Source: Octopus vulgaris (taxonomy: Eukaryota). From it: 64,000 bases of DNA. The stretch covers positions 68,696,001 through 68,760,000 of the forward strand of contig OX597831.1 of the NCBI GenBank assembly GCA_951406725.2, read 5' to 3'. The position numbers and the translations under genes were made by a program. Under the pieces are notes generated by a model that saw only the letters and a program-made list of their open reading frames with translations, was not told the origin of the DNA and did not search any database. Below, one piece after another: positions 1,430-63,358 of the stretch (the stretch's first letter is position 1; the number at the start of each line of letters is the position of its first letter).

Positions 1430-3300
1430 TATGAATGAATATTTGTAATGGTATTTTTCGAAGCATGATACTACACATATATCATGACTCCTTCCTGATT
1501 GGTTTCCGTCTATGGCCACTTTTCAGACAACATACAGCACATTTTCTTCTTGAATTTGTCTTCTTTTGTGTTGTTTGAATTTCCTCTGGAAAATGTCCTG
1601 GTGTAAAATGCAAACATCTTGGTGAAGTCAAAGGTCTACCTACTACTTAAGTAGACTGTAAATCTGCTCCATATTTTGCGATGGTATCTCGTATTATCTG
1701 CATACAAAATATCAGGTGTATGAAGGCTTTTTTTTTCTGCCTCAGTGACTGCTACATTGTACAATAAGTAAGAATTCTATATCACAAGGTCGATCAAATG
1801 GAAGAAGACTTTCTTGTAATATTTCTTACCAAATTTTCTTGTGATGGGATAATCTACTAGTTGTCGGTTCACCTTGTCATCTCCACCCATTGTAAAATTG
1901 TAACCATATACCACTGTTGGTTTCTTCATAGGCTATTGTCTTGTGTCAAAATCCTTCATAGTGGGGTTTCAAAGCATTCCAACGTCCTTCTTGTCTTTCC
2001 TCCTTGTCCTTCCATTATCTTACATCATTGACATGCTGTAACTTTACCATTCTTTCAACTTCGCTCTTTTCACCTGTTCAGGCACTTCCTTTCTATTCAA
2101 ATTGAGAGGTCCATAAATATCAATGTAGCGACTAACCAGAGTGTCAGCTAATTGTGGACTAGTATAAATGTTATCCACAATAAACTTTACCAAGTAAAAG
2201 CTTCATCAGAGACAACACATCACGAGAATTCATGGGATATTCACTATATTCTGAATCAAGCTGTGTTCCTTAGCCAACATAAATGATTATTCTATACACA
2301 AATCCAGTCTTGGTTTCATACACAAAAAAATACTTCACTTCAAACCTCCTCCTTTTTAGAGGTATATACTGCACCCATCCTAACCTTCCCCCAAACAACA
2401 TAAGGCTTTCATCTATAGATAAATCTTGGTTAGGGGTATAACACTTCATAAAGTTCTCACTAAACATCATAAACACATCATAAACTTTATACAATTTTAG
2501 GTTGGGATGTGTTTCTGCATCAAAAGTTTCATTATTCACAAAATGAAGAAGATACTGTTTTATCTTATTATGGCATTTCAAGCTGATCAGCTTCCAAAAG
2601 ATTGGTCTTTCAAGTATTTCATCTTTCAACCAGTTCATTTCTTGATCTGCCATTCTCACAATGCCCCTAAGCATTTTCAAGGCGAAAAACACACAAATTT
2701 CTGCCTTTGTTACAGGGCGCCAAATACAATCTCTTTCTTCAGTTTGTTCCGCAAAGCAATTAGCTTTGTCCACAACTCGATCAATAATTCTGTTGTCACA
2801 AAAAAGACTAAAAAAAATCCAAAGGAATCACATCAGCTGTGTTTTGATCAATTGATATTCCAAGATTTCCAGTGAATGGGAAGTGTGGTGGTGGAGGAAG
2901 CATGCATTCTTCCAACACCACATGTTGATACCAAATTCCTCCTCCTCCTCCTCCTCCATACTCTCCTCCCCTCCTCTTCCATATTCTCCTCCCCTCCTCC
3001 TCCATATTCTCCTCCCCTCCTCCTCCTCCATACTCTCCTCCCCTCCTCCTCCATACTCTCCTCCCCTCCTCCTCCGCCTCATCCTTCATACTCTCCTCCC
3101 CCACCTCCTCCATACTCTCCTCCTCCTCATCCATACTCTTCTCCCCCTCCTCCGTCTCATCCTCATCCTCCATACTCTTCTCCTCCTCCTCCTTACTTGA
3201 GAGGAAATAGCCATTATTAGACAAGCTTGCACTCTCATCTGATGTATCCAAGCTTCTAATAGAAGGTTCATACTCATTGTTATCTTCTGAGCTCGACATC
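1430..3300 (-). pseudogene. piggyBac transposase pseudogene (PGBD4-like)
   Basis: YTPNQDLSIDESLMLFGGRLGWVQYIPLKRRRF (ORF 2270-2773), DNIYTSPQLAD (~2145-2180), YNFTMGGDDKV...KKYYKKVFFHLID (~1790-1910), acidic N-terminus, Cys-containing C-terminus; frameshifts and stops. Confidence 0.9.
2936..3192. repeat. Imperfect ~21-30-bp (ctccatactctcctcccctcctc) minisatellite in the piggyBac N-terminal region
   Basis: About 10 visible tandem units; source of the overlapping E/G/R/P-rich ORFs. Confidence 0.85.
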
Positions 3301-6400: not shown

Positions 6401-6516
6401 ATGTGAAGCATATTCGCCACTTAAATGTAGATAACCACTAAGGGTGGGTGCTACAACCTACAGTAGCATCCACCCTTAGTGGTTAGCCACATTTAAGTGG
6501 CAAATATGCTTCACAT
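6401..6516. repeat. Fold-back: 54-bp inverted arms, 8-nt loop, inside (TA)n
   Basis: atgtgaagcatattcgccac...gtgctac / gtagcatcc...atatgcttcacat, ~4 mismatches. Confidence 0.9.
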
Positions 6517-6536
6517 ATATATATATATATATATAT

Positions 6537-6938
6537 ATATTGTTATATTTCGGAATGGTCATATTGCTAGTTTAGCCAATAAAAACACACGCACTATATA
6601 TTTGGTGTTATTTTGCTTCAGTGATATTTATTTTTTACATTAATCTTAATCTTATTTCGGCCAAAGTTCTTTCGTCACACTCCTGACGGTTAGTAAGGAG
6701 AGACACAAGTAAGTGAGAAGAAAACAAAGGACCACTGATGCGGTCACAGGAGTGTGACGAAAGAACTTTGGCCGAAATAAGATTAAGATTAATGTAAAAA
6801 ATAAATATCACTGAAGCAAAATAACACCAAATATATAGTGCGTGTGTTTTTATTGGTTAAACTAGCAATATGACCATTCCGAAATATAACAATATCTGTT
6901 TCAACACACGACTTCACATAAAAAATCTTGCACAACAA
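6537..6938 (+). mobile_element. Fold-back PLE-type short element (family FB1), ~148-bp arms, candidate HHR
   Basis: Arms 6537-6685 and 6747-6895 nearly perfect; second copy at 60943-61360; flanked by (TA)n. Confidence 0.8.
6729..6773 (+). ncRNA. Candidate minimal type I hammerhead ribozyme, A9C core variant
   Basis: ggacca-CTGATGC-g-gtcaca(ggag)tgtgac-GAAA-gaac-TT-tggcc; stem I gg(a)cca/tggcc. Confidence 0.5.
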
Positions 6939-6965
6939 ATATATATATATATATATATATGTATA

Positions 6966-7527
6966 TTGGGTTGTCTGGAAAGTTTGTGCCAACTTTTAAA
7001 GGAAAGAAAAAGTTCAATAAATACTTACCATTACATTTTTAATCAACCAAATATGAACCATTTTGTTGCACAATGCATCTCCATCTTTCTTTTAGCTTGA
7101 AAATACCCTCTTCCCAGAATTGAAGTGGTTTCATGGCAAAGAATTCAAGGTATTTTTTACGTCATCCAAGGAATTGAAATTTTTACCATTAAGACTATTC
7201 TGCAGAGAACTGAATAAGTGGAAATATGAAGGAGCAATATCTGGTGAATATGGAGTGTGGGGTAACACATCCCAGCCAAGCTGCAGCAATTTTTGTCTGG
7301 TTCCCAAAGCATCAAGTACCGGAAATAAACTTTCTTATCTTCCATTTTAACGGGTTGCAGAATTAACACAGGTTATAGGAACATAAATCTTCTTCCACGA
7401 AAAGATAGCTTAAACTGTACTCTAAATGGAGGTGTAGTCAAATCCTATTTTATGGACTAAACCATGTTCTAAAATAAGTCGAAAAGTAAGCTACTATAAA
7501 TTGGCACGAACTTTCTGGACAATCCAA
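6966..7527 (-). mobile_element. Internally deleted mariner (~560 bp)
   Basis: 27-bp TIRs ttgggttgtctggaaagtttgtgccaa / ttggcacgaactttctggacaatccaa; minus strand PYSPDIAPSYFHLFSSLQNSLNGKNF. Confidence 0.88.
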
Positions 7528-17165: not shown

Positions 17166-18119
17166 CACCCATTGGCTATTGATACATTTACTCAAGTTTT
17201 CATTTAAATCTCTCTCTCTCTCTCTCTGTATATATATATATTACGAAGTAAAAGCGATCAATAAATCTAGGCAGATATCTATAAATCACTGAGTGTTAAA
17301 TGAATTTGGTTAACTATATCAAATAATCAGACACCAATAAATGCAAGTTGAATTAATAGCCAAGGTAATTCTTCAAATATGACAAGTAAATCTAAATATT
17401 ATTTAAGAGACAAGAGCAAGAATAGAGAAGGTCACACCTCTAATTGGTGATTAAACCATAGATTACTAACGACTGTTTCTGCTGTCTAGCATATTTGGAC
17501 ACAGGAAAAAGTTATAAAATATCAGTCACATTAATATAGCTGAAAATATATGCTAACAGAATGTTACCAAGGCAATCCAAAACTGGATTAAATTCAAAGG
17601 GAACTATAATTAGCCATAGCTTTATGATCAAGATGTCTGTGCCCAACTATGGGGATTTAGGTTCAATCCAACTGTGTAGTATCTTGGGATTGTGTCTACT
17701 ATTAAAAAAGATGATACATACATGCATACATAAATACATACACATTCACTTTGCAAATAAATATATATTCATACATATTCATACATAATTTAATCATTTA
17801 TTCATATTTCATACTCTATAGTACATGCTTTCATATTTTCATTTTATACTTGTTTATATTTCTTATTGTTCATAAAGAATTAGGGTTATATTGCATCACT
17901 AATATCTTATTTTTGTTCATTCTTAATTCGTAGTTTTGGTTTTTATTTTTTAATATGTTTAGAAAATTATTTTCAAAATTCTCTTAAACTTTATATCTTT
18001 TAATTTTTAATTCGTCCCTTAATTTCTAACTTCTTCACATTATTGCATTTTCATCATTGGTACCTCAACATCAAACCTTGGCATTGATCTTTTATAACTT
18101 TTCAACTTCTCACTACACA

Positions 18120-18267
18120 TTATTTACATTATTTACAATTGACGGATAATTGTCCTCATCTTGTTTGTTGTTAATACAATGTTTCGGCTGATATACCATC
18201 CAGCCTTCATCAGGCATCTTGGGGAAATTTCGAACCTGGGTTCTCATTCCTAAGGTGTTTTTCAATG

Positions 18268-18313
<46 letters not shown>

Positions 18314-18541
18314 TATTCAGGTCACTGCTTGGAATCGAACTCAGAATCTTGGGGTTAGTAGCCCCAAGATCGAAGAACACCTTAAGAATGAGAACCCAGG
18401 TTCGAAATTTCCTCAAGACACCTGATGAAGGCTGGTGGGTATATCAGCCGAAACGTTGTGTTAACAATAAACATGATGAGGACAAATATCCATCAATTGT
18501 AAATAATGTACATAATTCCTCATCTCCTAAATATGGAACTG
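18120..18541. mobile_element. Inverted pair of the tRNA-head/(AAT)n/HHR Penelope terminal-repeat unit, without ORF
   Basis: Minus copy ~18120-18363 and plus copy ~18369-18541, both matching 33616-33872. Confidence 0.88.
18417..18462 (+). ncRNA. Minimal type I hammerhead ribozyme (canonical core, Penelope type)
   Basis: gacac-CTGATGA-a-ggctg...cagcc-GAAAC-GTT-gtgtt; palindromic AACGTT stem III; decayed copies at 18173-18218 (-) and 33748-33792 (+). Confidence 0.85.
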
Positions 18542-19080
18542 TATTCTCACTACACCTCTTCCACTTTATTTTCCATTTCTTACTTATTACACTCTATCTC
18601 TTTTGGAGTAGAACTGTGTTCTTCTACAGCCCAGGGTTGGCTTTTCCCATATTTTTCTGTCAGAATGCGTTTTCAGCCCAGTGCTCGCATACTTTTCCTT
18701 GGGCTCTCTGTGTTCCTCAGGAGTTAGTCTAAGATGTAATTCTCCCAAGGTCACTTGCAGATTTATAATACATATAATGCTGGCAATACTCTATACTTTA
18801 TTTCATTTTACTTTACTTTATCCTGAATTCTGCTACCCCTTATGTAGAATGTTCTTTTTATTCTTGAATGAGAGTAAACAGCTTCAATTTATTCCTATTG
18901 TATCTATACCTCTACAATTCAGGAATTTCTAATATCTACCTCTGTAACTAACTAGCTATGTATTAAGCATTTATTCTCTACTTCTCTTATTTTAATCCTT
19001 ATTCCTGCTGTTCTCTTTACAGTGATTACTAATATCTTTAGAACTAGTTAAGTATTAACCATTTACGCTATATCTTTAAT

Positions 19081-19395
19081 GTTGTGTCTGGGGAGAGTCA
19101 TTCTCTTTTAGTGTCTTATTATTTAACACACTCACCAGTAAAATTTCCACTTAATACTTATTTTTATTTTTTTTAATTTTCGTTGCGTGTTGCAACCTTT
19201 TCAAGAGTCAAGACTATTGAAAAGGTTGCAAGACACAACGAAAATTTTAGAAAATAAAAGTAAGAAATAAGTGGAAATTTTACCGGTGAGTGTGTTACAT
19301 TATAAGGCACAAAAAGAAAATGACTCTCCCCAGATACAACAGAATATGCTTCAACAGACGAACTCATATAAAGAATCTTGCAAACCAAAATCCCA
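19081..19395 (+). mobile_element. Fold-back PLE-type short element (family FB2), ~124-bp arms, 12-nt loop
   Basis: Arms 19081-19204 and 19217-19340; 3' extension resembles the FB1 3' end. Confidence 0.8.
19214..19250 (+). ncRNA. Candidate minimal hammerhead, U3-A8 covariant core
   Basis: cta-TTGAAAA-g-gttg(caagaca)caac-GAAA-at-TT-tag; palindromic AAATTT. Confidence 0.45.
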
Positions 19396-19829
19396 AAACG
19401 AAATATATTTTTAATACTTTACTCCTAATTTCTACAGTTCTTTCTTGGTCTTATACAAGTGTTCCTAGACCTATTTTAATTTTAATTTACTCTATTTCTG
19501 CTCAACACTAACATATTGCATAAATAAATAGTTTTATACCACACTTTAGTTTCTTCCTTTATTTTAGGTTTTTATTTTAGCTTCTTGAACCCCACCCCTA
19601 CTCCACTTAACTGTATTTCTTTTATGCCTAGGCATGTCACGTTTTAGGGTCTCCAGGAATAGTTCTGGTTAGTTTCATTACCACACCTCACACTTTTCTT
19701 ATGTAGTTTATTGCCTGTGTTCGTCCTACATCTTCCCCTACCACCTATATAATGCTACCTTACTTTAGTCATCATCATCATCATCAATATTGTTTGTGTT
19801 CCAACTTCTTCTTCTGCAATGGGTACCAC

Positions 19830-32100: not shown

Positions 32101-32423
32101 GTCATGTGTACAAGACTGTAAATTTTAGAATAACTTAGATCAACCTCAATGCTTAACTAGCATTATTTTATCAACCATCAAGAGGATGAAATGTAAAGTC
32201 ACTCTTAGCAGGATTTGAACTAAAAATATAAAGTGATGTGAATTAAAAACCGTAAAGTATTTTGCCCACTGTTTTACCAATTCTGCTACTCCGTTGCCCA
32301 ATCAACAACAGCAATTATAGTTATTTCTTTAATTGGAGTGGGTAGTATGTTTTTGGGGTAGTTGTTGCTTAATAGATTGTTACTTAGCTTGATATAATCA
32401 GTCCATTAGCAGAAAAGTCAACA

Positions 32424-33586
32424 TTGTACGTGAAGAATTCCACCCACTTCACAGAATTGATCAAGGATACCCCCACTGAATCCAACCAGATGGTGAGTTT
32501 AGATGTGATAAGTCTGTTCACCAAAGTCCCAACAGGTGAAGCACTATGGGTAATTCAAGAAAAACTAGTGACAGACACCCATCTAGAATGTACTAGTATA
32601 CCAATAAGAAACTTGATGGAAATGTTGACCTTCTGTGTAGAAACTACCTACTTCAGTATGGACACTGATATATATCAACAAGAAGAGGGTTTAGCTATGG
32701 GTTCACCATTATCACTGATAATAGCCAATATATACATGGAATACTTTGAGAATTTGGCTTTAGGATCAACACTACTAAAACCAACCCTATGGCTGCAATA
32801 TGTTGATGACACCTTTATACTCTGGCCCCACAAGGAAGATGTCCAAGTGCAGTTAGATCATCTGAACACAATAAAGCCATCCATACAGTTCACAATGGAA
32901 AAGGAAAAAGACAATCAGCTAGCATTCCTGGACGTATTAATAACATGCACCAAGTATGGATACAGGACATCTGTATACTGCAAGCTGACCATCACTAGAT
33001 GATATCTCAGCTTCAATTCCCACCATCCATGCAGTGTAAAGAAGAGAGCGACTGCTCAGTACCTGAAACAGGAAAGAGAGGATGACACCAATAAACTGTC
33101 CACAGTCTGTCTACCCTATGAGAAAGGCCTCTCCAAAAAGATACAAAAGATATGCAGCCCATATGACACCAGGACAGTATTCAAGAGTAATACAACACTT
33201 TTCAAATATCTCCTTCAAGTAAAACCACCAATAAAGAGTATATGACCAAAGACTGCATGTATTCCATCCCATGCAGCTGTGGTAAGTTATGCAAAAGTGA
33301 AACATGACACCCCCTCAAGGTAAGGGTAGACGAACATCACAAAGCTGTGACATGAGGAGATATTGATAAATCAGGTATAGCTGATCATGTATGGAAAAAT
33401 GGAGACCACCTCCCCCTGTGGAATGATGTTAAAATAATAGACAAAGAACACCACTGGAAAATACAAAAACTAAAAGAAGCAGCACATATGCTAGGACACA
33501 ACAACTTCCTAAGCAGAGTGAGTGCAGATAAGAGTAGCATATGGGAGCCAGTATGAAGGAAGGATAAGAAAATATTAGATTTATAA
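32424..33586 (+). pseudogene. Penelope/Poseidon-type reverse transcriptase + GIY-YIG endonuclease pseudogene
   Basis: MVSLDVISLFTKVP, YQQEEGLAMGSPLS, WLQYVDDTF, IQFTMEKEKDNQLAFLDV; then MYSIPCSCGK...RVDEH...SGIADHVW...KLKEAAHM. Confidence 0.93.
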
Positions 33587-37833: not shown

Positions 37834-38270
37834 CATATATTTATATATATGTATGTATAGGTAACTGCGCTTGTGCGGTGGGTTTGAAAAAGTATAATGT
37901 ATATTGATGGAGCATGTGTATCTTCAGTGTTGGATAAATATGCTTTAATTTTACCACCCTTACTGAAGAAACACAGATGGCAAATTAATTTATTTCCACA
38001 TTAATGCAGAAACTCGAGTATAAGAGTAACTATTGAAATGTTTTTACTTTTCATTCCCTTTGAAATTACTTTTATTTGTGGTTTGGGCTCTAACTGCACT
38101 TTCCAGCTTGTAAGGTCACCTCTTTTGTGTATAAAAATGTACACTAATTTATACATATATATATATATATATATATATTTTTTTATTATCATTTGAGGGA
38201 ATAAAATCCAAAACTTACAAGGAAACAGAATTCAATTTAGAAATACTAAATCAAATTCCACACAATATAA

Positions 38271-38601
38271 TATATATATAAAATATTAGAAAGAAACCAC
38301 CTTTTATCAATTCAAAATGAACAATTAAATTACACCATCTAGAAAATTACATATAATAGAAAAGTTAAAATTAAAATAGCAATAGTAAGTAAAGATTAAG
38401 TAAATTACAAAAATAATAAAAATGTATATAATAGGTAGAAAAACCATTATATACCTTTATATACATTTTTATTATTTTTGTAATTTACTTAATCTTTACT
38501 TTTTATTGTTATTTTAATTTTAACTTTTCTATTATATGTAATTTTCTAGATGGTGTAATTCAATTATTAATTTTGAATTGATAAAAGGTGGTTTCTTTCT
38601 A

Positions 38602-38617
<16 letters not shown>
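38271..38617. repeat. AT-rich fold-back: ~160-bp arms, ~25-nt loop, inside (TA)n
   Basis: aaatattagaaagaaaccacc...atgtatataa / ttatatacat...ggtggtttctttctaatattt. Confidence 0.9.
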
Positions 38618-38633
<16 letters not shown>

Positions 38634-40850: not shown

Positions 40851-40918
40851 TTTTACATTTCATGTCCTAATACATGGTCAGCATGGGAATAAAAAGGTAA
40901 TAATTATTTAAAATTATA

Positions 40919-41275
40919 ATTATAATTTAGGGTATCTAAGAGATACCACCACGCTGGAAATAGCAGTCAAAACTTGACTCCAAAAGCACTTTAAATGTTT
41001 GTACAGCAGCATCAAGTTTCCCACCAGCTCCTGGTGCTGCGTGAACATTTAATGTGGTTTTAGAGTCAAGTTTTGACTGCTATTTCCAGCGTAGTAGTAT
41101 TTCTTAGATACCCTGAATTATAATTTTAAATATAGATATATATATATAAGGATAAGATCGTTAATTTAAATTACGATCTTATCAAGTGGCCACATTTAAT
41201 GTGGTTTTAGAGCCAGGTTTTGGCTGCTATTTCTAGCATGGCGGTATCTCTTAGATATCCTAAATTATAATTTTA
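40919..41275. repeat. Inverted + direct triplication of an ~90-bp unit
   Basis: Arm 40919-41016 inverted relative to 41030-41125; direct copy 41190-41275. Confidence 0.85.
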
Positions 41276-42236
41276 TATATATATATATATTTGTGTGTGT
41301 GTATGTATGTATTCACTTGATGCAAGACACATACAGACAGAATGATAAATAGAATGATGAATATAAATAGATATAAATATATTATTTGATATTATTACTG
41401 TGGCAAGCTGGCAAAATCATTAGCATGTTGAACAAAATATTTAGCAGCATTTTTTCTAGCTTTTGCATTTAGAACTCAGACTCCACTCTGTTCAACCTTA
41501 CTTTTCAGCCTTAAGGGTGTGTGGGGGAGGTCAATATAATCAACTTACTCCTTCCCTCAAAACTGCTGTTCTTGTGCCAAAATTTTAAACCATTTTTTGG
41601 TATTGTCAATCAATTGCAGTCAGCAACAGATTTTCTGGTGATAGGACTCCATACTTTTAAAAGAGTAAAATTTGTTGATAAAATTGATTTCAATGGGACT
41701 TCGAGTTTCCCATTAATGGCCTATCAATCTGGTCAGATATGCCATTGAAAGGAAACCTTCTTGTCCCAGTCAAATCGAATTTCATAAATATTTGTGTTTG
41801 TGTATGTGATATGTGATTTATGTATCATACTTAACATATATACCCTATTGATATACTGTGGTTTGGCTCGGACATAAAGTCTCTTATAGATATGCAATAG
41901 ATATTGAGAAGAGATTAAAAACAAACTATCCTAGCAGTGGCTAGTAAGAGTACGAGATGTATTTTGGCCTTCTCAGGTCTTGTTCATGGTTTGTACTTGC
42001 AGCTACATGTATAGGCAAAATTTGGTGTCTCTTATATAAGAAACAGTGAATAGTATATTCACTGGATTTTTTAACATAGCATGTCTGTAGTAAGAGACTA
42101 TAAATATACTACATTAAAAAAATAATCAATAGCACTTTAACTTTAAAAATAAACACCATTACATTCATAGATTCAACGTGGTTCATTCATCTGCTGGAAA
42201 TAGTTGCTAAATTTCCCTAAGATCACACTTACCAAT

Positions 42237-48553: not shown

Positions 48554-49761
48554 ATCATCTCACACTAACCTTTTTCATAAAAAACAACTATTGTATATTT
48601 GCCCCATAATTTGCCTTCTTCCTGACTGTTAGTAGTAACATCTGTAATCCAGAGCCAAATCTTTACTTATAAAGCTGTCTCTGCCATCTATAACAGGCAA
48701 ATGCTTTGTGTGTCATTTAGCAACATTATGTATTTTTTTCATCTTTATGTTATTATAACTCTTGATTTGGATATTAAAATGCAAAGATCTCACAACAAAC
48801 TACATCTGAAATGTCAATTTAGTGTATGTCATTTCTGAAATAATAGCTGTCACAATAAAGTGTTTACCCAATCATTAGTTTTATGCCATGGCTGTTTAAT
48901 CTAATTTTGGGTGACTTGTAAACAGCTAGAATTAATTTAAGAATATATTAAAACTTCATATCATTTCTAATGTCATTTTCTGAAATCAAATTTTCAAGTT
49001 AACAGAATTGGAACTGCATCACACAAAATGCTTTGTTGTATTTGATTATTGCACTTTACAGCATATGTTTATGTTGTGCTGAGGTCACCTTTGCCTTTCT
49101 TTCAGGGTTCATAAGATAAAGTACCAGTCAGGTACTAACATTGATATAACTGACAAACCCCTCCCCTTGTGCCTATAAGAAACGATTATTACCGTTATTA
49201 TGCTTTTAACAATTTCATCCAAGTTTATTCTCCATCTCTACCTCAGTACATTTGATAATAAAAAAGATAATACCATGCATGTAGTACTATCTTTTGTGAG
49301 TATAGGTTGATGTTTCATCAGAAATAACATGTTCCTAAAGTTATTTAAATGCTTCACCTGTTTGCTATGTAGAATCATCATCATCATCATCATGACAATG
49401 ATGATGATGATGACAACGTCTTCATCGCCACCATCATCAACATCATCATCATCATTTCGTGTCTGTTTTGCATGCCGGCATGGATGGGTTAGCTTGACAG
49501 GACCCAACAAGTTGAAGGACCATTTTTGGCTCCAATGTCTCATTTTTGGCCTGATTTCAATGGCTGGATAGAAACACCACCCACTTCCTTCCAAACACCA
49601 ACCACTTACAGATGCATTTTCTTATGGAACCAACCCTATTTGGATTGCCTTGAAGCTTGGAAACTGAAAAGAGCTTTCTTGATAGATGGAATAGATTTAA
49701 CAATGGAATCACTCTTCAGGTAAAGAACAAAGACGAACTAAGATTCATCATTGCTTGAAAG

Positions 49762-51339: not shown

Positions 51340-52700
51340 AATGATATGAATATTCTGAGGTTTGCTGTTAATGAGGATGTATTTGCATAAAAGGAAAAGT
51401 ACTTTAACCTTGTATTATCTGAAGCTTGGTATATGGACAAATTTACTATATCCAGAATCAAAATACTAATAAAATTCCTGGTAATGCTATGATATTAAAT
51501 ATGATGGAACTTGACAGAATGCGATGAAAATAAATACATCAGACAAACTTATTTAAGTATGTATAAAATATAAAAAAGATTGGTAAAAATTAGTCTTGAA
51601 AATAAATATATTAATACTTATAAGCACGGCTGTAACTATGAAGATACTAAATGTATGGTTGTTTTAAATAACAACAACAACAATAGTAATACATGTGAAT
51701 AATGTCAAGCATAAGAATTATTTATGACTGGAGAACAACTAACTTTGGAATTAATAGTTGTAAACATGTTGATAATTTAACATTATGGAAAAAGGCAATG
51801 TAAATAATAGAAAGGTTAAACTGAGGAATATTATCAGATATAATGCACCATTCACATCTTAATTAACTACTAATATTCCTCAAAAATTATTTGCTGCACT
51901 TGATAGACATTTCCCACCTTCAAGTAGGTATAGGAAATTATTTAATTGTCATAGAGTAAAATTTTCCTGTTCAACCTCTAGAAATTTGACTGAGAATATT
52001 GCAGCATATAATGAATGTAAAAATTAGACAGTATCGCAACTCAAAATTAGAAAACATGAGACAAACTTATAGTATAAATTGTAAGATAAACTCTAATGAT
52101 AGTTTTCCTGAGCTAGTTTTCAATACTTTAGGCGACAGTAATTCCAACTGTGTAATTGATAGTACCTTTAAGATAACACTTAGTAATAATGTTGATTATA
52201 ATACTACTTATTATCTGAGTTTAGCACCTAATTCTGAAAGTAGAGTTAGTACTAATTCTTTTAATCAGGAGTACTACAAAAAGGTAAATAAACGCCTTTG
52301 TAATTTCGAAAACAAAATTGCCTGCCCTTTAGAAAATCAATGTTCAATGACGAATATGATATATCAATGTCAGATAATTTCAGAGAGCCACAATATTATT
52401 ACATGGGTTCTCTGCTACAATTTAAAAATCTAGATTACATAACCTTTCTTCTTCATTTAGGTTTAGAAATAATGTAATTTTATGAATCTTAGTACATTCA
52501 TTTGGGATTTGAAAGAAAGACAGGAACATTAACTATGATATAAAGTGGTCCATCATACAACACTGGTAATTTTAAATGTGATCTTTGCCTAGAGGAAATG
52601 TTGTATATAATTACTTCAACATTAGAATTATTGAATTGTAGATACAATCTTACATTAAAATGTTCCCACAAACATGGAAAAACATTTAAATATTTCAATA
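51340..52700 (+). pseudogene. Naiad/Chlamys-like Penelope element relic (linker + Cys-rich GIY-YIG)
   Basis: IIRYNAPF...TNI...LDRHFPPSSRYRKLFNCHRVKFSCS; CNFENKIACPLENQC...MIYQCQI; IWDLK; YNTGNFKCDLCLEE; LLN.R....KCSHK. Confidence 0.8.
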
Positions 52701-53319
52701 GTAAATAATGCTGTGATTATAATTGCTTTTTCTATAATCTAATAAGCATAATTTTTTAACATATATTAATACCTAAATAACTAAATGTTGTAAGATACAA
52801 TTTCTAAATTTATTTTTTTATTCTTTTGTTATCTACTAACAACACCATAAGTTTGAATACTAAACTAGTTTTTCTTAGAATATTATGTATTCTTCTTTTA
52901 TATGCATTCTTGTATTAAAGATAGTCAGTTTGAATTTAGACCATTTGAGTTACCTTGATAACATTGTCTAAATCTAAATTTTCAGATATATTTGTATCTT
53001 TTTCTATATCTAAATATGCTGGTGCAATAGAAACAACCGGCTGTTATATACAGTGTATTCATCAATTGAAGATGTGATTTTCTCTTTTCTTGTTCATGTT
53101 GCTAATTACTGTGGATTTCTTGAAATTCTTCTAAATGGTATTTAGATCTACAAGTCATACATGAGGAAATACTTCTAATGTTAATTCTATTTGAATTTAT
53201 TGCATTTGAGTTTTGAATATTGTTAACCAAGTTCACATTACTCTGATTGCATTCTAGATATCTGCCTGAATTTATTAATACCTTTTACCTTTTGTTACAC
53301 ACACACACACACACACACA

Positions 53320-54562
53320 TAGAGTGTCCCCAAAAAATGTATACACACTTCAAATAATTGTAAAGTAGGTGATTATTACAATACATTTCTATTTTCAAAA
53401 TTTAATAGAATCTACAGGCATTATTTTATTTTCTTGTCAATGCCTGTTTTCAAACTGACATCCGGCCTGGTCCAGGCACTGCTGACAACACGAGCAATGA
53501 AATCGCGAACATCATGAAGCAATTCGTTTGATATTTGTGTGCATTCTCGTTCAATGGCTGCTCTCAAATCGACGACTGTTTCTGGTTTCACAGCGTAGAC
53601 TTTGTCTTTTAGGTATCCCATAAAAAAAAGCCTTGTGGTATGAGGTCTGGTGAATGTGGAGGGTACTCAATGAAACCCCTTCGTCCAATCCACCCGTTTG
53701 GCAAGATCACATCAACGAAGGATCTAACATTATGATGGTAGTATTGGGGGCGGTCCATCTTGCTTAAAATAAAACTCCTCATCTTCAAAGTCTTCTCTAA
53801 TGCTTGGCATGGCAGACTGTTGCAGCAAGTTCAAGTAAATGGAACCAGTCACAGTAGTGTCAAAAAAGAATGGTCCAGTTAATCCTCTTGATGATAAACC
53901 ACACCGCACTGTAACTCCTGGTAAATTAACATAGTGTTCCACCATAACATGTGGATTCTCAAGTCCCCAGTATATGCAATTGTGGTGGTTTATTGGACTA
54001 TTTAATTTGAATGTGGCCCCCATCACTCCACACAATCTTTGTTGGAAAGTGTGAATCTTCTACACATTGTGCCAAGTACCACTTGCAATACTGCATCTTT
54101 GGTCTGGATCATCGTCATTAATAGTATGGAGTAATCTTGGACTGTAACTTTTCCATTGACAATGCTTCAAAATGCATCGACAGACGATTTTAAAATACCT
54201 ACCTTATGACTAGCTTGCTGCACAAATTTTCCTGGACGTTGGTGATACGCCTTCTTGCTTTGTGAGGGTTGTCAATGTCCGTGGTCTTCTGGATCACTTC
54301 TCATAGACATTTCCATCGGCTTCAAACTTATTTCTAATTAAAGTGATGGCAAGTCGTGTTGGTGGACCTGTTTGAAACTCCCTCCTAAACTGTCTTTGCA
54401 CTTCAACTGCGTTTTCCCACTTCCAGTGGCATTTTAGAATGAATTTCTTTTGTTCAAAGCTTAGTCTGACTGCCATCATTAATTCCAGTCGGTTTAATAT
54501 GGAAAGAAAAACATAAATTGAATTATCAGCTGCTAAATTAGGTGTACAATTTTGGGGATACC

Positions 54563-54565
<3 letters not shown>
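53320..54565 (-). mobile_element. Tc1/mariner-superfamily element, rosa/DD41D-like, decayed
   Basis: TIRs tagagtgtccccaaaa / ttttggggataccctg; N-terminal HTH (LSFEQKKFILKC..VQRQFRREF), KQDGPPP, YPPHSPDL, GYLKDKVY. Confidence 0.88.
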
Positions 54566-54606
<41 letters not shown>

Positions 54607-54663
54607 CTCTTGTATGTGTATATATATATATATATATATATCTATGTATGTATGTATGTATGT

Positions 54664-57542
54664 ATGTCACAGAAGTATGTACACCCCTAAAAAACTTTAG
54701 TAAAATTGCCATTACTCTGATAATATCGAATGAAATCAAACGCAATTTATTCCGAATAAAATATATTATAGATGCAAACATTATACAAATTTGGAACACA
54801 CGCAATAAATATTTTCAAGATACGAACGAAATATTAATTTTCAAATATTACAAAAATATGTACACCCTAAAGGAAATTTGATATATTTAGTATTTTATCC
54901 ACTTTTTTTTTTTTACTAAATTCAGATATTGCTAGTAATTTCAGTTCTAATAAATTATTTCTCCTGGCATTTTTGCACTAGTCCTTGTTATTGCAATTGT
55001 AGGAATTCTGATTTGTGTAGCATGGTGAAAATTTTCTTCATTGCGATTAAAACGGCACCAAAAGAAAAAGAATTGTCAGCAGATCTGAAAAAAATTATTT
55101 TTAATTTACACAAGAATGTTTTAGGATACGAATGTATATTAGCATAAACATAGTTGCCTAAGTAATTCAGAAGTACAAAGCTACTGGACGACTAAGCAAT
55201 AAACATTGTTGAGGTCATTCTTCTATTTTAACTGCATGTGATATTCACCATATCCAACGTTGTGTGATGGACGACAGGCGTTGTACCACTTCATCTTTGG
55301 CCCAAGAAATGTCTTCTGTTAGTGGAAAGTGTGTATTCACCCAAACAGTTTGCCAAAATTTGAACCAGTGTGGCCTTCATGGATGCATTCCTTGTAGGAA
55401 TCAAGCATCAATCAAGTTGTCATTCTTTTGCTGAAACCTATGTAAGGGGAAGAAGTTTTGGAATAAAATACTTTTTGTCTGGCAAGACTAAAATCAACTT
55501 GTTTGTGTCAGATGGTATTAAACAAGATAATAGCAACAAATGTACTGTGCCTACCGTGAAACATGGCAGCAGAAGTGTTATGCTTTGGGGATGCATGAGT
55601 GAAGCTGGTGTAGAAGGACTCACATTTATTGAGGGAACAATGGATTCGAGGCTTTATTGTGACATATTGCAGAAAACAATGTTGAAAAGAGCATCAAGGA
55701 ACTAGGAAGATATCCCATGTCCAACATGATAATGACTCTAAACACACTTCAAAGAAGATGACTAAGTTTTTATCAGATAAAAAGGTAAAGATATTGCTTT
55801 GGCCTACCACTTCACATGATATAAACACAATAGAACATCTGTGGGGTCTTTTGAAAAGGAAGGTTGAGGAGAAAAAAACCCCCGTAAAGTAACATAGTTA
55901 AAAAATATTATTCATGATACGAGGGGCGTTCAATAAGTAATGCCCCTGACCCACTTCCCATAGCAATAGAGCAACGAATCTTGGCAGAGTTAATAGTCTT
56001 TTTCTACATAGGAAACACCCAGAGTTACGCATTTCTCCCATCGTTTGATGCAGCTCTGATGACCGTTTTTGTAGAAGACCCCAGCTTGATCCTCCAGCCA
56101 TGACGTGACTTCAGAAATCAAGGCTGCATCATCTGGGAAAGGCTTCCCTTTCAAAAACAACTTCATGGCTGGGAAGAGGAGAAAATCAGAGGGTGCAAGG
56201 TCATGAGAGTAGGGGGATGGGGGGCGAGTTCATAGCCACATGCCTGTGCTTCTGATCTGGCGACAAGCGAGTTGTGGACAGGAGCGTTGTCCTGCAGGAG
56301 GAGGATGCCTTTGCTGATCTTGCCATGCTTCTTGATTTTGATAGCTTCTCTTAATTTCCTCAACAGTGAAGCATAATAGGCTCCTGTAATTGTGGTACCC
56401 TTTGCCAGGAAATCTGTCATCACTACACTGTCCTGGTCCCAGAAGACTGTGAGCATGACCTTGCCAGCGGAGAGCTGCACCCTTGCCTTCTTTGGAGGAG
56501 GTGAGTCATGGTGCTTCCACTGCATTGACTGGGCTTTGGTCTCTGGATCATAGTGATGGACCCAGGTTTCATCCTGTGTAATCAGTCTTTTGAAAAATTT
56601 TGACTCATCTTCTTGGCACATCTCCAAATTCATCCTCGAGCACTTGACGCATTCTTGCTTCTGGAAAGGTGTGAGCAGCCTGGGAATCCATCTGTCAGAC
56701 ACCTTTTGCATATGCAAATGGTAATGAATTATAGTTTCCACAGACCTGGTACTAATCTTGACCTCATGGGCTATTTAGCGAATAGTTATATGTCGATCTT
56801 CCAAAATGGTAGCCTCAACTTGACGGACAGATGCCTCATCAATGGCAGAAGGGGGGCGACCAGATCTGGGAGCTGTTTCCACAGAGTTCCGACCGTGTTT
56901 GAATTGACGATACCAGCGTTTTACAAGGCCATATGATGGGGCATCGTCACCATAAGTTACTTTCATTTCATCAAAAGTCTCCCGTGGTGTGCGTCCTTTC
57001 AAATACAAAAACCGGATCACTGCTCAACACTCAACAGGCTCCATTTCATACTTGACTCCGTTCAAACACCTGTAAATCAGAAACCACAATTAGTTCAGAG
57101 ATGTAATTTGCCACTTAATCTATAGAGATATAAATAATTGCACATGCAAAATTTCAGCTAGATCAAACAACTGCAAGTGGGTCAGGGGCATTACTTATTG
57201 AACGTCCCTCGTAAATAGAGGTCGATTTCATTGGTTATATGTGGAAATTTAGTTGACTGTATGCCCAGAAGACTTCATGCAGTCATTGAAAGCAAGGGTG
57301 TCACACTAAATATTGAATATAGCAAATAATCCTTTAGGGTGTACAGATTTTTGTATTGCTTGAAAATTAATGTTTCGTTCTCATCTTTGAAAATTTATCT
57401 CATTTTGTGTTCAAAATTTGTATAATGTTTGCATGTATATTATATTTTATTCAGTATAAATTTCGTTTGCTTCCCTTTAATATTATCAGATTAATGGAAA
57501 TTTTACTGTAATTTTTTAGTGGTGTACGCACGTCTGTGAGAT
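54664..57542 (+). mobile_element. Tc1 (DD34E, IR/DR type) with ~220-bp TIRs, interrupted by a mariner
   Basis: Long TIRs with gtacaccc direct repeats; KELSADLKKII, PTVKHGSRSVMLWGCMS, QHDNDSKH, DINTIEHLW, and MPRRLHAVIESKG after the insert. Confidence 0.92.
55920..57211 (-). mobile_element. Full-length mariner (DD34D-type, irritans-like), 1292 bp, TA TSD
   Basis: 37-bp TIRs with one mismatch (cgaggggcgttcaataagtaatgcccctgacccactt); WIPRLL, QDETWVHHYDPETK, QDNAPVH; a few stops/frameshifts. Confidence 0.96.
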
Positions 57543-60763: not shown

Positions 60764-60910
60764 ATAGGCACAGGAGTAGATGTGTGGTAAGTAGCTTGCT
60801 TACCAGCCACATGGTTCCAAGTTCAGTCCCACTGTGTGGCACATTGAGCAAGTGTCTTCTACTGTAGCCTTGGGTCAACCAAAGCCTTGAGTGGATTTGG
60901 TAGACGGAAA
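60764..60910 (+). mobile_element. SINE family A, 5' part
   Basis: Head through ggtagacggaaa. Confidence 0.85.
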
Positions 60911-60942
60911 TCTATATATATATATATATATTACGTTTATAT

Positions 60943-61360
60943 ATTCTTGTACAAGATTTTTTATGTGAAGTCGTGTGTTGAAACAGATATTGTTATATTT
61001 CGGAATGGTCATTTTGCCAGTTTAGCCAATAAAAACAAATGCACTATATATTTGGTGTTACTTTGCAACAGTGTTATTCATTTTTTACATTAATCTTAAT
61101 CTTATTTCGGCCAGAGTTCTGTAGTCACACTCCTGTGACCGCATCATCTGACGGTTAGTAAAGAGAGACACACAAATAAGAAAGAAGAAAGCAAAGGACC
61201 ACTGATGCGGTCACAGGAGTGTGACGAAAGAACTCTGGCCGAAATAAGATTAAGATTAATGTAAAAAATAAATAACACTGAAGCAAAGTAACACCAAATA
61301 TATAGTGCATGTGTATTTATTAGCTAAATTGGCAAAATGACCATTCCGAAATACAACAAT
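60943..61360 (+). mobile_element. Fold-back family FB1, copy 2, candidate HHR at 61196-61240
   Basis: Same arms and loop as 6537-6938; core CTGATGC...GAAAgaacTC-tggcc. Confidence 0.85.
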
Positions 61361-63358
61361 ATATATATATATATATATACAGAGAGAGAGAGAGAGATAG
61401 TGACTGACAGACAGACACACACACAGAGGGAGAGACCTATTTTATATTCCATGTTTTAACTGAATCTTCAATACACATGCATATTCATAACAAGTCTTAA
61501 ATGTTTAGCCTACTCCTTGTATTATTTTGTTTTACTCAAAATATAAGTAATTTCATAAGTTATTCGAATAACTTTCATAGAATTCTTGCTGTCCCTGCTC
61601 CATTACTTTCTTCTCTATTATAATTAGTCTTTGTGTTATTACTATGAATTGTTTTGTTTTTGTTTGTCTAATATTTCTGTAAATTAAATCTGATAATCAT
61701 TTGATATTATTGCTTTATATGATTATCTCTTCTTTAAAGGCGGGTATCATTGTCTGTAGATATAGGTTTGGTTATCAATTTTGCCATTTTATTCTGCTTG
61801 ATAGAATTTATCCTCTTTCTCTTTTGTGCCTTTGAGTCATGTGGAATATATAGTCAACAATTTAAGAATTACTAGTCAATATCTAGGAGGAGTTTGCAGG
61901 TGGTTTCATTTCTTACAGAATATATATCTAGTAATAAGTGACTGTGTTTGATGAATTGAATATGGAATGGAGTGTTTTGCTTCAGTTATTACACACATTC
62001 AGAACATAAATAGAAACTAGCAGATTGATCTAGTAGCAAATTTCTCTGAGTAAATTGAAGAGTCTGAGACAAATCGGAGTTGCTATCTTTATTGTCTGGG
62101 TCAATATGGATAGTTGGAAGCTCCTACAGCTTGCATTAATTAATTACTAAGATGAAGCTGACTTGGTATATACCTTATGATAGTTCTGCTTGTCATTCTG
62201 TTTACTCAGCCTATCAGTAACACTTTCATGTGATTAGTTGAAGGGAAAGAGAGGAGAAAGAAAAGGAGGGAGAAAAATAGATAAAGGCAAAGAGTAAGAC
62301 AGAAAGTGAGAATGAAAAAGAGGGAGAGAGAAAACGACAGAGAGAGAAAAAGAGGGAGAGAGAAGCATCCATGACGTGAGGTAGGGGAATGTAATATTTA
62401 TTATGTGGTTAAAAAAGTTAGTCAAAAGTAGTGATGATAGAGAGGAGGAGAGTTGAAAATATAATTTCAGCAGTGGGGTAATGTTCTGATGATGAGATGA
62501 GGTTAAAGAAAGGCAGAGAGAGAGATTGAGGGGAGAGAAAGTGAGGAGAGAGATATGATGGTGATGGTGGGGGTGGTGGTGGTGATTGGATAGCGAAAAG
62601 TGTATTTTTTTATTTAATCGAACTAAGTTTTTTATGTCACCTATCACTTAACACATGCTCATAAGTGCAATTCTGTGAAATATTCATGCTTGTATACATG
62701 GCAGATATTTAACTAAAGGTTGTATCATATGTACAGGATATGTTTTTTCATTTATGGGAAAATGGAAAAATAAGAGTGAATATTAATTTTATGAGTGCTG
62801 TGTTTTAAGTCCATAGAATTATACATAAAGTATATAAAGTGTATATATAAAGTGCATTAAGTTATAATTGTATCTCAATTCCTTTCACTTTTCAATGAGT
62901 AGCTGATGAGTGACTATCTTTCTATACAGGCACAACACAAGCTATATTTTTAGGGATTTTTGGATAAAGTTTTCAGAAATAGCCCAATAGGTTCACCATT
63001 AATTCTGTGAAATAGTCACGGGATCCACTAGTTTACGTTGATTTAGACTGCACTAGTTAGAATATCTTTTCTATAGACAAAATACAGACCCAGTGGCAAG
63101 GTACAAAGTCTATTCCAAATGAAATCAAACTTTTAAAGCAGCACATCTATCAGCTGGCATAGCATGTTTGTGATTGCAGTGCTGTTGAGTGACTTCACTC
63201 TTTAGTCTAATAATAACCATATTATGTCACTCCAATTAGTCATCAGTCTACATGTGCCAAAGTCGATGTATATTTGGGGTACTTGGTATTTTGTCACAAG
63301 TTGAGCAATGAAAAATTTGGACTAACAAAACATTTATGTGAATTGCTATTTATTGTGA

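What the first reader, a model, noticed from the sequence alone, without database searches (positions are those of the whole stretch)
6537..6938. Fold-back family FB1: fixed sense-strand start, variable inverted arm and a conserved A9C hammerhead-like core
Seen: two copies 54 kb apart (also 60943-61360). In both, the sense segment starts at the same point, (t)ctgacggttagtaa, whereas the inverted arm ends at different points. The 3' extension ...cacataaaaaatcttg lies on the sense arm in copy 1 but on the inverted arm in copy 2. Both keep CTGATGC-g-[6-bp stem, GGAG loop]-GAAAgaacTY-tggcc, so the A9C change is not random decay. Inference: independent integrations of a short non-coding RNA with a defined 5' end (retrozyme-like, PLE-mobilised) carrying a variant ribozyme.
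Basis: partly seen in the sequence, partly recalled or inferred. Interest (0 to 1): 0.7.

Follow-up and report, generated by a model that had tools for sequence, protein, structure and literature searches.

The report
Penelope-like retroelement fold-back ends
These hairpin-shaped repeats are likely the leftover ends of a Penelope-like jumping gene, a known insertion pattern; the one unusual detail is that most copies carry a changed letter in the core of their ribozyme-like motif, which probably weakens it.

Summary
In detail: two head-to-head fold-backs in (TA)n, same sense start, different inverted-arm starts, tail on opposite arms, and a minimal type I hammerhead topology with C at position 9. 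The 'short non-coding RNA' reading does not hold. The outer end plus tail reads as an ORF N-terminus (ATG 6870), shared with a sibling fold-back at 19320 with synonymous excess (p 0.005-0.015) and with nine database peptides, most losing similarity near residue 26-28. This is the published 'inverted pLTR + direct pLTR + optional tail' anatomy of Penelope-like elements. No RT/endonuclease could be linked, so membership stays inferred. Thousands of contigs match in 3 of 4 runs laid. C9 is the majority, but canonical A9 makes up 18-31% of depth, and no compensatory stem change appears, so C9 is an inherited lineage mark, not shown to be functional. The fixed start is real but not absolute: some contigs extend about 19 nt further. 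Both arms of each copy share variants (6 versus 0), so they likely come from one template. This scan noted the same pattern before in other genomes. New member of a known kind.

The parts
6515..6540 (.). (TA)n target microsatellite, left of copy 1
6537..6685 (-). copy 1 inverted arm: 5'-shortened pLTR copy equal to sense 6747-6895, no tail; 3-nt overlap (6683-6685) with the sense start
6683..6895 (+). copy 1 direct arm (inferred pLTR); preferred family 5' start at 6683
6729..6773 (+). minimal type I hammerhead-like motif; C at position 9 (6741), extra G (6742), G10.1-C11.1 (6743/6758), N17 at 6768
   Evidence: family variants
6870..6944 (+). start of an ORF (ATG 6870, about 25 codons), first 9 codons in the pLTR and the rest in the tail
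6896..6940 (+). tail on the direct arm of copy 1; family 3' ends pile up behind 6895 and near 6932
6939..6966 (.). (TA)n target microsatellite, right of copy 1
60933..61146 (-). copy 2 inverted arm with the longer tail (60933-60986); ATG at 61012; its GAAA has decayed (two substitutions)
61148..61362 (+). copy 2 direct arm, same 5' start, no tail; hammerhead-like motif 61196-61240; ATG 61337
19080..19400 (.). sibling fold-back of a related family; shares the ORF start (ATG 19320, 16/21 aa identical) and has the tail on one arm; no hammerhead core found in it

Best explanation
FB1 is a high-copy family of head-to-head fold-back insertions in (TA)n, each arm ending in the first codons of a protein-constrained reading frame, and it is likely the pseudo-LTR end of an endonuclease-bearing Penelope-like retroelement. 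Inferred mechanism: the element's GIY-YIG endonuclease nicks (TA)n; reverse transcription starts inside the RNA, 25-80 nt into the ORF (two or more start sites give the optional tail); it runs back through the pLTR to the RNA's 5' region near an internal promoter (the preferred start at 6683); the second arm is copied from the same template, by snap-back of the first strand on a short microhomology (3 nt in copy 1) or by a second priming from the other target strand, and so begins at a variable point. The hammerhead is a passenger of the pLTR. C9 marks the lineage that amplified most, probably weakens cleavage, and would be tolerated because cleavage is likely not needed for insertion.
For: Shown here: anatomy in 2 of 2 window copies. 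ORF start: versus the sibling at 19320, 9 of 15 differences are at third codon positions (hypergeometric p=0.015; p=0.005 for 5 or fewer amino-acid changes without a stop). A profile search of 1.84 billion proteins gave 11 hits; 8 align from the N-terminal end of the profile and 7 of these lose similarity at residue 26-28, 1 at 17; 3 are repeat artefacts. A UniRef Octopus bimaculoides model starts with the same peptide, 88% over 25 aa. Family scale: 9550, 8124, 6643 and 1 contigs laid in 4 runs; loose ends behind 6895 are (TA)n (24 and 23 contigs in two runs) and behind 6932 there are 69-93 per run; depth rises over 6683-6710; one further opposite-strand joint is 6683 to 6811. One template: 6 copy-diagnostic and 0 orientation-diagnostic positions among the four arms, including 6864 A, carried by both arms of copy 1 where 98% of family depth has G. 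Literature: pLTR holds the first 12 aa, 22 with the tail; tail optional on one inverted pLTR; inverted pLTR shorter than the direct one (PMC3846280); tail on either side and (TA)n bias (PMC8557442); tail lies between two internal RT start sites, both target strands are nicked and extended, hammerhead mutants still insert (PMC11167929); minimal hammerheads with an extra base between positions 9 and 10.1 sit in pLTRs, some in opposite-strand pairs 100-700 bp apart (PMC4209133).
Against: No RT or GIY-YIG domain was linked to this ORF start: three protein searches, one scan each of viral and metagenome contigs and one of prokaryote genomes found no full-length ORF, and the peptide is absent from the Naiad/Chlamys/Hydra supplement. 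The tail (37 nt to the main pile-up, up to about 57 nt) is partly longer than the 30-40 nt described. No Rfam hammerhead model hits. Simple snap-back from a tail-primed first strand cannot by itself give copy 2, where the full-length arm lacks the tail. The 5' start is not absolute: 7 and 19 contigs extend a median 19 nt further with a shared motif, and one joint (6794/6899) uses another start. Summed contig depth is not a copy number. Arm similarity within a copy could also come from later gene conversion.
Confidence: 0.88

Rival explanations
1. FB1 is a non-autonomous derivative: a pLTR-only RNA transcribed from its own internal promoter and mobilised in trans by a PLE protein (retrozyme-like in dependence, but monomeric and head-to-head). 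This differs from the best explanation only in whether the template is a short RNA or the 5' end of a full-length transcript.
For: Depth is near plateau from about 6700 to 6915 and most listed 3' loose ends run into AT-rich flank; no full-length ORF was found; the 5' extension seen in 26 contigs completes a YY1 core (GCCAT on the other strand) at the preferred start, and L1 5' ends cluster at such sites (PMC10620060, PMC11602158). Non-autonomous Chlamys elements and vertebrate retrozymes derive from pLTRs.
Against: Third-position excess in the tail points to propagation through lineages that translated the ORF. No go-back joints among the 9 listed. The YY1 match is post hoc and rests on a consensus of few contigs; the same extension could be the end of the upstream ORF or UTR of longer copies.
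Confidence: 0.25
2. The C9 motif is a working ribozyme variant kept by selection, cleaving as a dimer or with help from the element's protein.
For: C9 is 69-82% of depth in runs from two organism labels; the other core positions (6735-6740, 6759-6767) have no variant listed at 3% or more; stems I and II fold as predicted; natural core variants with low activity exist (PMC3088659); the PAc ribozyme cleaves only with protein.
Against: Stem changes are one-sided only (6758, 6772, 6773 C>T); the motif region is as variable as the rest (6/45 versus 22/205); canonical A9 coexists; stem III cannot form in a monomer (pair probability under 0.001) and its AA loop is not palindromic; head-to-head arms cannot supply a same-strand partner; A9 pairs with G12 in the active core (recalled, no call).
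Confidence: 0.12
3. The fixed junction is the 3' end of an antisense-strand intron; the released antisense RNA self-primes and is copied into the fold-back.
For: The minus strand ends at the junction in a branch-point-like TACTAAC, then CAG, after a long pyrimidine tract, in both copies; self-priming on an antisense template was proposed for head-to-head PLE structures (PMC3846280).
Against: Post hoc; the motif occurs 4 times in the window against 2.76 expected; the branch-to-AG distance is very short with the pyrimidine tract on the wrong side for an animal intron (recalled); no convincing donor site was seen by eye at the tail end; some copies extend past the junction.
Confidence: 0.04
4. 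An ordinary MITE or fold-back DNA transposon with terminal inverted repeats.
For: Long terminal inverted repeats, small size, TA flanks, high copy number.
Against: Termini differ (6895, about 6932-6940, and a longer end), the tail switches arms, the central junction differs between copies, and the arms carry an ORF start and a hammerhead topology.
Confidence: 0.02

Closest known systems
Canonical endonuclease-positive Penelope-like element insertions (Penelope/Poseidon, Neptune, Nematis, Hydra): direct pLTR plus adjacent inverted pLTR plus optional tail (PMC3846280, PMC8557442, PMC2377424)
   Same: Head-to-head arms, shorter inverted arm overlapping the direct one, tail on one end only, ORF start inside pLTR and tail, microsatellite target without a readable TSD, hammerhead motif on the ORF strand.
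   Different: No ORF body in the two copies; clade unknown because no RT/EN was linked; tail up to about 57 nt; most copies have C at hammerhead position 9.
Minimal type I hammerheads of metazoan pLTRs (PMC4209133)
   Same: Short helix I, 6-bp helix II opened by G10.1-C11.1, extra base between 9 and 10.1, rudimentary helix III.
   Different: Published consensus is CUGANGAH; here position 9 is C in the majority, the extra base is G, and loop 3 is not palindromic.
Poseidon from Anolis carolinensis (PAc) in vitro system (PMC11167929)
   Same: Internal RT start sites within the ORF explain the tail; AT-rich target; both strands extended; hammerhead dispensable for insertion.
   Different: In PAc the ORF starts inside the hammerhead and RT starts 111-118 nt into the ORF; here the ATG is about 100 nt downstream of the motif and the ends lie 26-80 nt into the ORF.
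Non-LTR retrozymes (bioRxiv 10.64898/2026.07.22.740005; PMC7229834 seen as listing only)
   Same: Small, type I hammerhead, PLE-related.
   Different: Retrozymes are head-to-tail tandem and non-coding; FB1 is head-to-head and carries an ORF start.

Membership tests
EN+ Penelope-like element | Single ORF with PLE-type RT and GIY-YIG endonuclease attached to the repeat | tested here: inconclusive
   Only the first 25-28 codons are present; no full-length ORF; no assembled genome held
EN+ Penelope-like element | Direct pLTR with adjacent, shorter inverted copy, head-to-head | tested here: met
   2 of 2 window copies; 2 opposite-strand joints
EN+ Penelope-like element | Optional tail at one end, equal to the continuation of the ORF start | tested here: met
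   tail 37 nt to the main pile-up, up to about 57 nt
EN+ Penelope-like element | Microsatellite/AT-rich target, TSD often unreadable | tested here: met
   (TA)n loose ends behind 6895
Minimal type I hammerhead of pLTRs | Topology: helix I, core, extra base, helix II with G10.1-C11.1, GAAA, UH | tested here: met
Minimal type I hammerhead of pLTRs | Core consensus CUGANGA(H) | tested here: not met
   C9 in both window copies; A9 in 18-31% of family depth; consensus from PMC4209133 supplement
Minimal type I hammerhead of pLTRs | Compensatory covariation in stems I/II | tested here: not met
   Only one-sided C>T changes listed at 3% or more; rarer changes and phase are not visible in contig tables
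Minimal type I hammerhead of pLTRs | Self-cleavage | not testable with these tools
   needs an in vitro assay
Non-LTR retrozyme | Head-to-tail tandem units each with a hammerhead | tested here: not met
   None in the window; 0 of 9 listed joints go back; contigs are short, so arrays elsewhere are not excluded
Non-LTR retrozyme | No protein-coding content | tested here: not met
   ORF start with synonymous excess
Non-LTR retrozyme | Circular RNA accumulation | not tested
   no raw-read RNA run was laid
MITE | Fixed termini, fixed internal junction and fixed TSD | tested here: not met
Described cephalopod Naiad families (Naiad_Obim, Ovul, Esco) | Matching ORF N-terminus or pLTR | tested here: not met
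   0 occurrences of three peptide words and two DNA words in the supplement; the N-termini shown differ; long sequence runs in that file are cut

The most novel reading that the evidence does not exclude
FB1 is a self-propagating, pLTR-only head-to-head element whose 5' end is set by an RNA signal (a YY1-type internal start, or an antisense branch-point/AG), and whose majority lineage spread to thousands of loci across several related species with a C9 hammerhead that still cleaves with protein help: a natural core variant not found in my searches, with a coexisting A9 sister lineage as a built-in control for what Penelope hammerheads do.
Probability: 0.1. Interest if true: 0.6.

Novelty: new member of a known kind. 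Interest (0 to 1): 0.27.

Why it matters
As anatomy it is ordinary: Penelope-like elements leave such fold-backs, and O. vulgaris has 31 recently active Penelope-like families (PMC13282606). Two points have modest value. First, the role of pLTR hammerheads is called unclear in the literature (PMC8557442), and a family in which a core-changed C9 lineage outnumbers its canonical A9 sister is a natural test of whether cleavage matters in vivo. Second, thousands of short insertions with one preferred start, a variable second arm from the same template and a tail on either arm are a large data set for telling snap-back from twin priming. Such units are also easy to mislabel as MITEs, and if transcribed they would give 150-210-bp double-stranded RNA (inference).

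Tried and rejected
No assembled genome is held, so no genome-wide alignment. Rfam: 0 hits at gathering score in the window, and only sub-threshold hairpin matches, no hammerhead, at E up to 10 on 6450-7000. A 25-nt exact pattern: 0 hits in metagenome and prokaryote contigs. Peptide scans: 0 of 107 candidates confirmed in viral contigs, 0 of 94 in metagenomes, 2 of 87 in prokaryote genomes; these two (L001, L002) are 12-19-aa matches without FB1 DNA beyond the searched stretch and were rejected as chance. Of 11 profile hits, P0002, P0008 and P0010 are repeat artefacts and were dropped before alignment A2. The rest of P0001 after about residue 26 has no PLE domain and is read as a chimeric gene model (inference). 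ESM Atlas: best score 0.84, uninformative. No homologue for the endonuclease-like fragment at 51990-52430, no Pfam support. An 8-aa match at 52919-52896 (minus) is marginal (profile E 0.01 in the window) and shows no pLTR similarity; left unresolved. A similar junction-like motif at 48622-48634 has no arm homology. A sense-strand intron ending at helix I, as in D. virilis Penelope, was rejected by eye: 41 nt, purine-rich, donor not conserved. Run X16 gave 1 contig and does not cover position 9. One energy evaluation was invalid (2-nt loop) and is not used. Literature searches for 'hammerhead + A9C + cleavage' and for A9U/A9G gave 0 papers; Lunse et al. (PMC5785218) is not held and figure 5 of PMC3088659 and one supplement of PMC4209133 could not be seen, so a known position-9 variant is not excluded.

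Full report
Observation. Both copies are as described. Copy 1 has an inverted arm 6537-6685, equal to sense 6747-6895, then a sense arm from 6683 to about 6940, between (TA)n runs. Copy 2 has an inverted arm of about 60933-61146, equal to sense 6736 onward, one extra base, and a sense arm 61148-61362. The sense arms are 197/213 identical with one gap. The arms meet at their 5' ends, so both outer ends are 3' ends of the unit. The tail is on the sense arm in copy 1 and on the inverted arm in copy 2, where it is about 54-57 nt. The junction of copy 1 has a 3-nt microhomology; copy 2 has none visible.

The outer end is an ORF start. An ATG at 6870 opens a frame through the end of the arm (9 codons) and the tail (about 25 codons). 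A third fold-back at 19080-19400 shares this stretch (75% over 73 nt): 16 of 21 residues are identical, 9 of 15 base differences are at third positions (p=0.015), and the same 15 substitutions placed at random give 5 or fewer amino-acid changes without a stop in 0.5% of trials. A UniRef model from Octopus bimaculoides begins with the same peptide (88% over 25 aa) and continues into unrelated sequence; the host is therefore likely an octopus. A profile search returned 11 proteins; 8 are short unnamed predictions that carry a diverged version of the peptide, 7 ending at residue 26-28 and 1 at 17, and 3 were dropped as repeats. So many related families end at the same point in the same ORF. In the rotifer element Pen2a the pLTR holds the first 12 residues, 22 with the tail, the tail is optional on one of the inverted pLTRs, and the inverted pLTR is shorter than the direct one (PMC3846280, passages). 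PMC8557442 (passages) describes the adjacent inverted 5'-truncated copy, the 30-40-bp tail at either end and (TA)n targets. In the PAc system the tail is the sequence between two internal RT start sites within the ORF, both target strands are cut and extended, and hammerhead mutants still insert (PMC11167929, parts 1-2 of 4).

What could not be shown. No RT or endonuclease was linked to this ORF start, no genome is held, and the peptide is not in the Naiad/Chlamys/Hydra supplement. The clade is unknown and membership in the Penelope-like class rests on anatomy, the ORF start and the ribozyme motif.

Family scale. 20 of 24 listed runs hold the stretch or part of it, from 12 studies and 8 organism labels. 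I laid 4 of them on 6650-6940 at 80% likeness: 9550, 8124, 6643 and 1 contigs. Summed depth climbs from 6683 to a plateau at about 6700-6710 and falls over 6915-6940; this is the shape expected for sharp ends when short overlapping contigs are summed (inference), and it is not a copy number. 3' loose ends fall behind 6895 into (TA)n (24 and 23 contigs in X1 and X4) and behind 6932 (69, 80, 93 contigs). One opposite-strand joint links 6683 to 6811, a third junction with the same start and another inverted-arm start; another links 6794 and 6899, a different start. In X2 and X4, 7 and 19 contigs extend before 6683 by a median 19 nt, and the two consensus lines agree over their last 15 letters. 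So the start is preferred, not absolute. 580 further loose-end rows were not shown. The extension plus the first base of the arm completes the YY1 core GCCAT on the other strand; L1 5' ends and start sites cluster at such sites (PMC10620060, PMC11602158, passages). This is a post hoc lead. Two others are open: the extension is the end of the upstream ORF or UTR, or the junction is an antisense splice acceptor (TACTAAC then CAG ends exactly there, but the motif is not enriched in the window, 4 versus 2.76).

One template for both arms. Among the four arms there are 6 positions where both arms of a copy agree against the other copy and 0 that follow orientation. Both arms of copy 1 carry 6864 A where 98% of family depth has G. 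The arms therefore come from one molecule or lineage, or were homogenised later. Copy 1 fits snap-back of a first strand on 3 nt. Copy 2, with the tail on the shorter arm, needs either a second priming from the other target strand at the distal start site or trimming of a hairpin intermediate.

The hammerhead. The topology matches the minimal type I motifs of pLTRs, including the extra base before G10.1 (PMC4209133, parts 1-2 of 4 and one of two supplements); the published consensus is CUGANGAH, from which FB1 departs at position 9 (C) and at the extra base (G). No Rfam model detects it. Folding gives stems I and II with z of -1.4 and -1.0; stem III does not form in a monomer. In the family, position 9 is A in 18%, 31% and 29.5% of depth (70, 62, 92 contigs), position 17 is C in 65-79%, and stem changes are one-sided C>T; these figures include relatives down to 80% likeness. 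6 of 45 motif positions vary against 22 of 205 elsewhere. The inverted arm of copy 2 has lost GAAA. C9 is thus inherited and in the majority, but nothing shows selection on it. That A9 pairs with G12 in the active core is recalled; PMC3088659 (section 8 and passages) says most core changes lower activity strongly while some natural variants keep a little. I found no paper on A9C but could not see PMC5785218 or the figures. Another family in this window (18119-18516) has a head-to-head pair of canonical A9 motifs.

Rivals. Non-LTR retrozymes are defined as tandem, non-coding units (bioRxiv 10.64898/2026.07.22.740005, part 1 of 5 and passages); neither feature is met. A pLTR-only non-autonomous derivative remains possible and overlaps with the best explanation. 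A MITE is excluded by variable ends and junctions.

Verdict. A new, high-copy member of a known kind. Two earlier notes of this scan reached a similar reading for other genomes; they came after my reading was recorded and are not independent support. Other papers seen: PMC13282606, PMC6765202, PMC2377424 (passages). Interest 0.27: ordinary anatomy, with a useful natural A9/C9 contrast and a preferred 5' end that is not yet explained.

Noticed in passing
window 18119-18516: Head-to-head fold-back of another family with canonical minimal hammerheads (A9) at 18422 (+) and 18213 (-), interrupted by an (ATT)n-containing insert.
   Followed up: partly
window 19080-19400: Sibling fold-back sharing FB1's ORF start, palindromic junction with almost no spacer, tail on one arm.
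   Followed up: yes
window 6401-6516, 38265-38624, 40905-41291: Further fold-backs flanked by (TA)n; the first is nested directly left of copy 1, the last has a third partial arm. Likely other Penelope-like remnants.
   Followed up: no
window 51863-52708 (+): Frameshifted remnant that looks by eye like the C-terminal zinc-finger linker and GIY-YIG region of a Neptune-type element (recalled resemblance; no Pfam or homologue hit); an 8-aa match to the FB1 peptide lies on the opposite strand at 52919-52896.
   Followed up: partly
window 32388-33002 (+): Reverse transcriptase fragment (Pfam RVT_1, E 3e-9), Penelope/Poseidon-like by eye.
   Followed up: partly
window 6683-6695 and 61148-61160 (-): Branch-point-like TACTAAC followed by CAG ends exactly at the fixed junction on the minus strand, after a pyrimidine tract.
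   Followed up: partly
just 5' of window 6683 in contigs of runs X2 and X4: A shared 15-nt extension that completes a YY1 core motif at the preferred start.
   Followed up: partly
window 60765-60910 and at least 8 other places (families D9, D13): Abundant SINE-like repeat; copy 2 sits in a TA run at the end of a shortened copy.
   Followed up: no
window 56163-56774 (-), 55364-55705 (+), 54294-54641 (-), 2270-2827 (-): ORF fragments that resemble Tc1/mariner and piggyBac transposases by eye.
   Followed up: no
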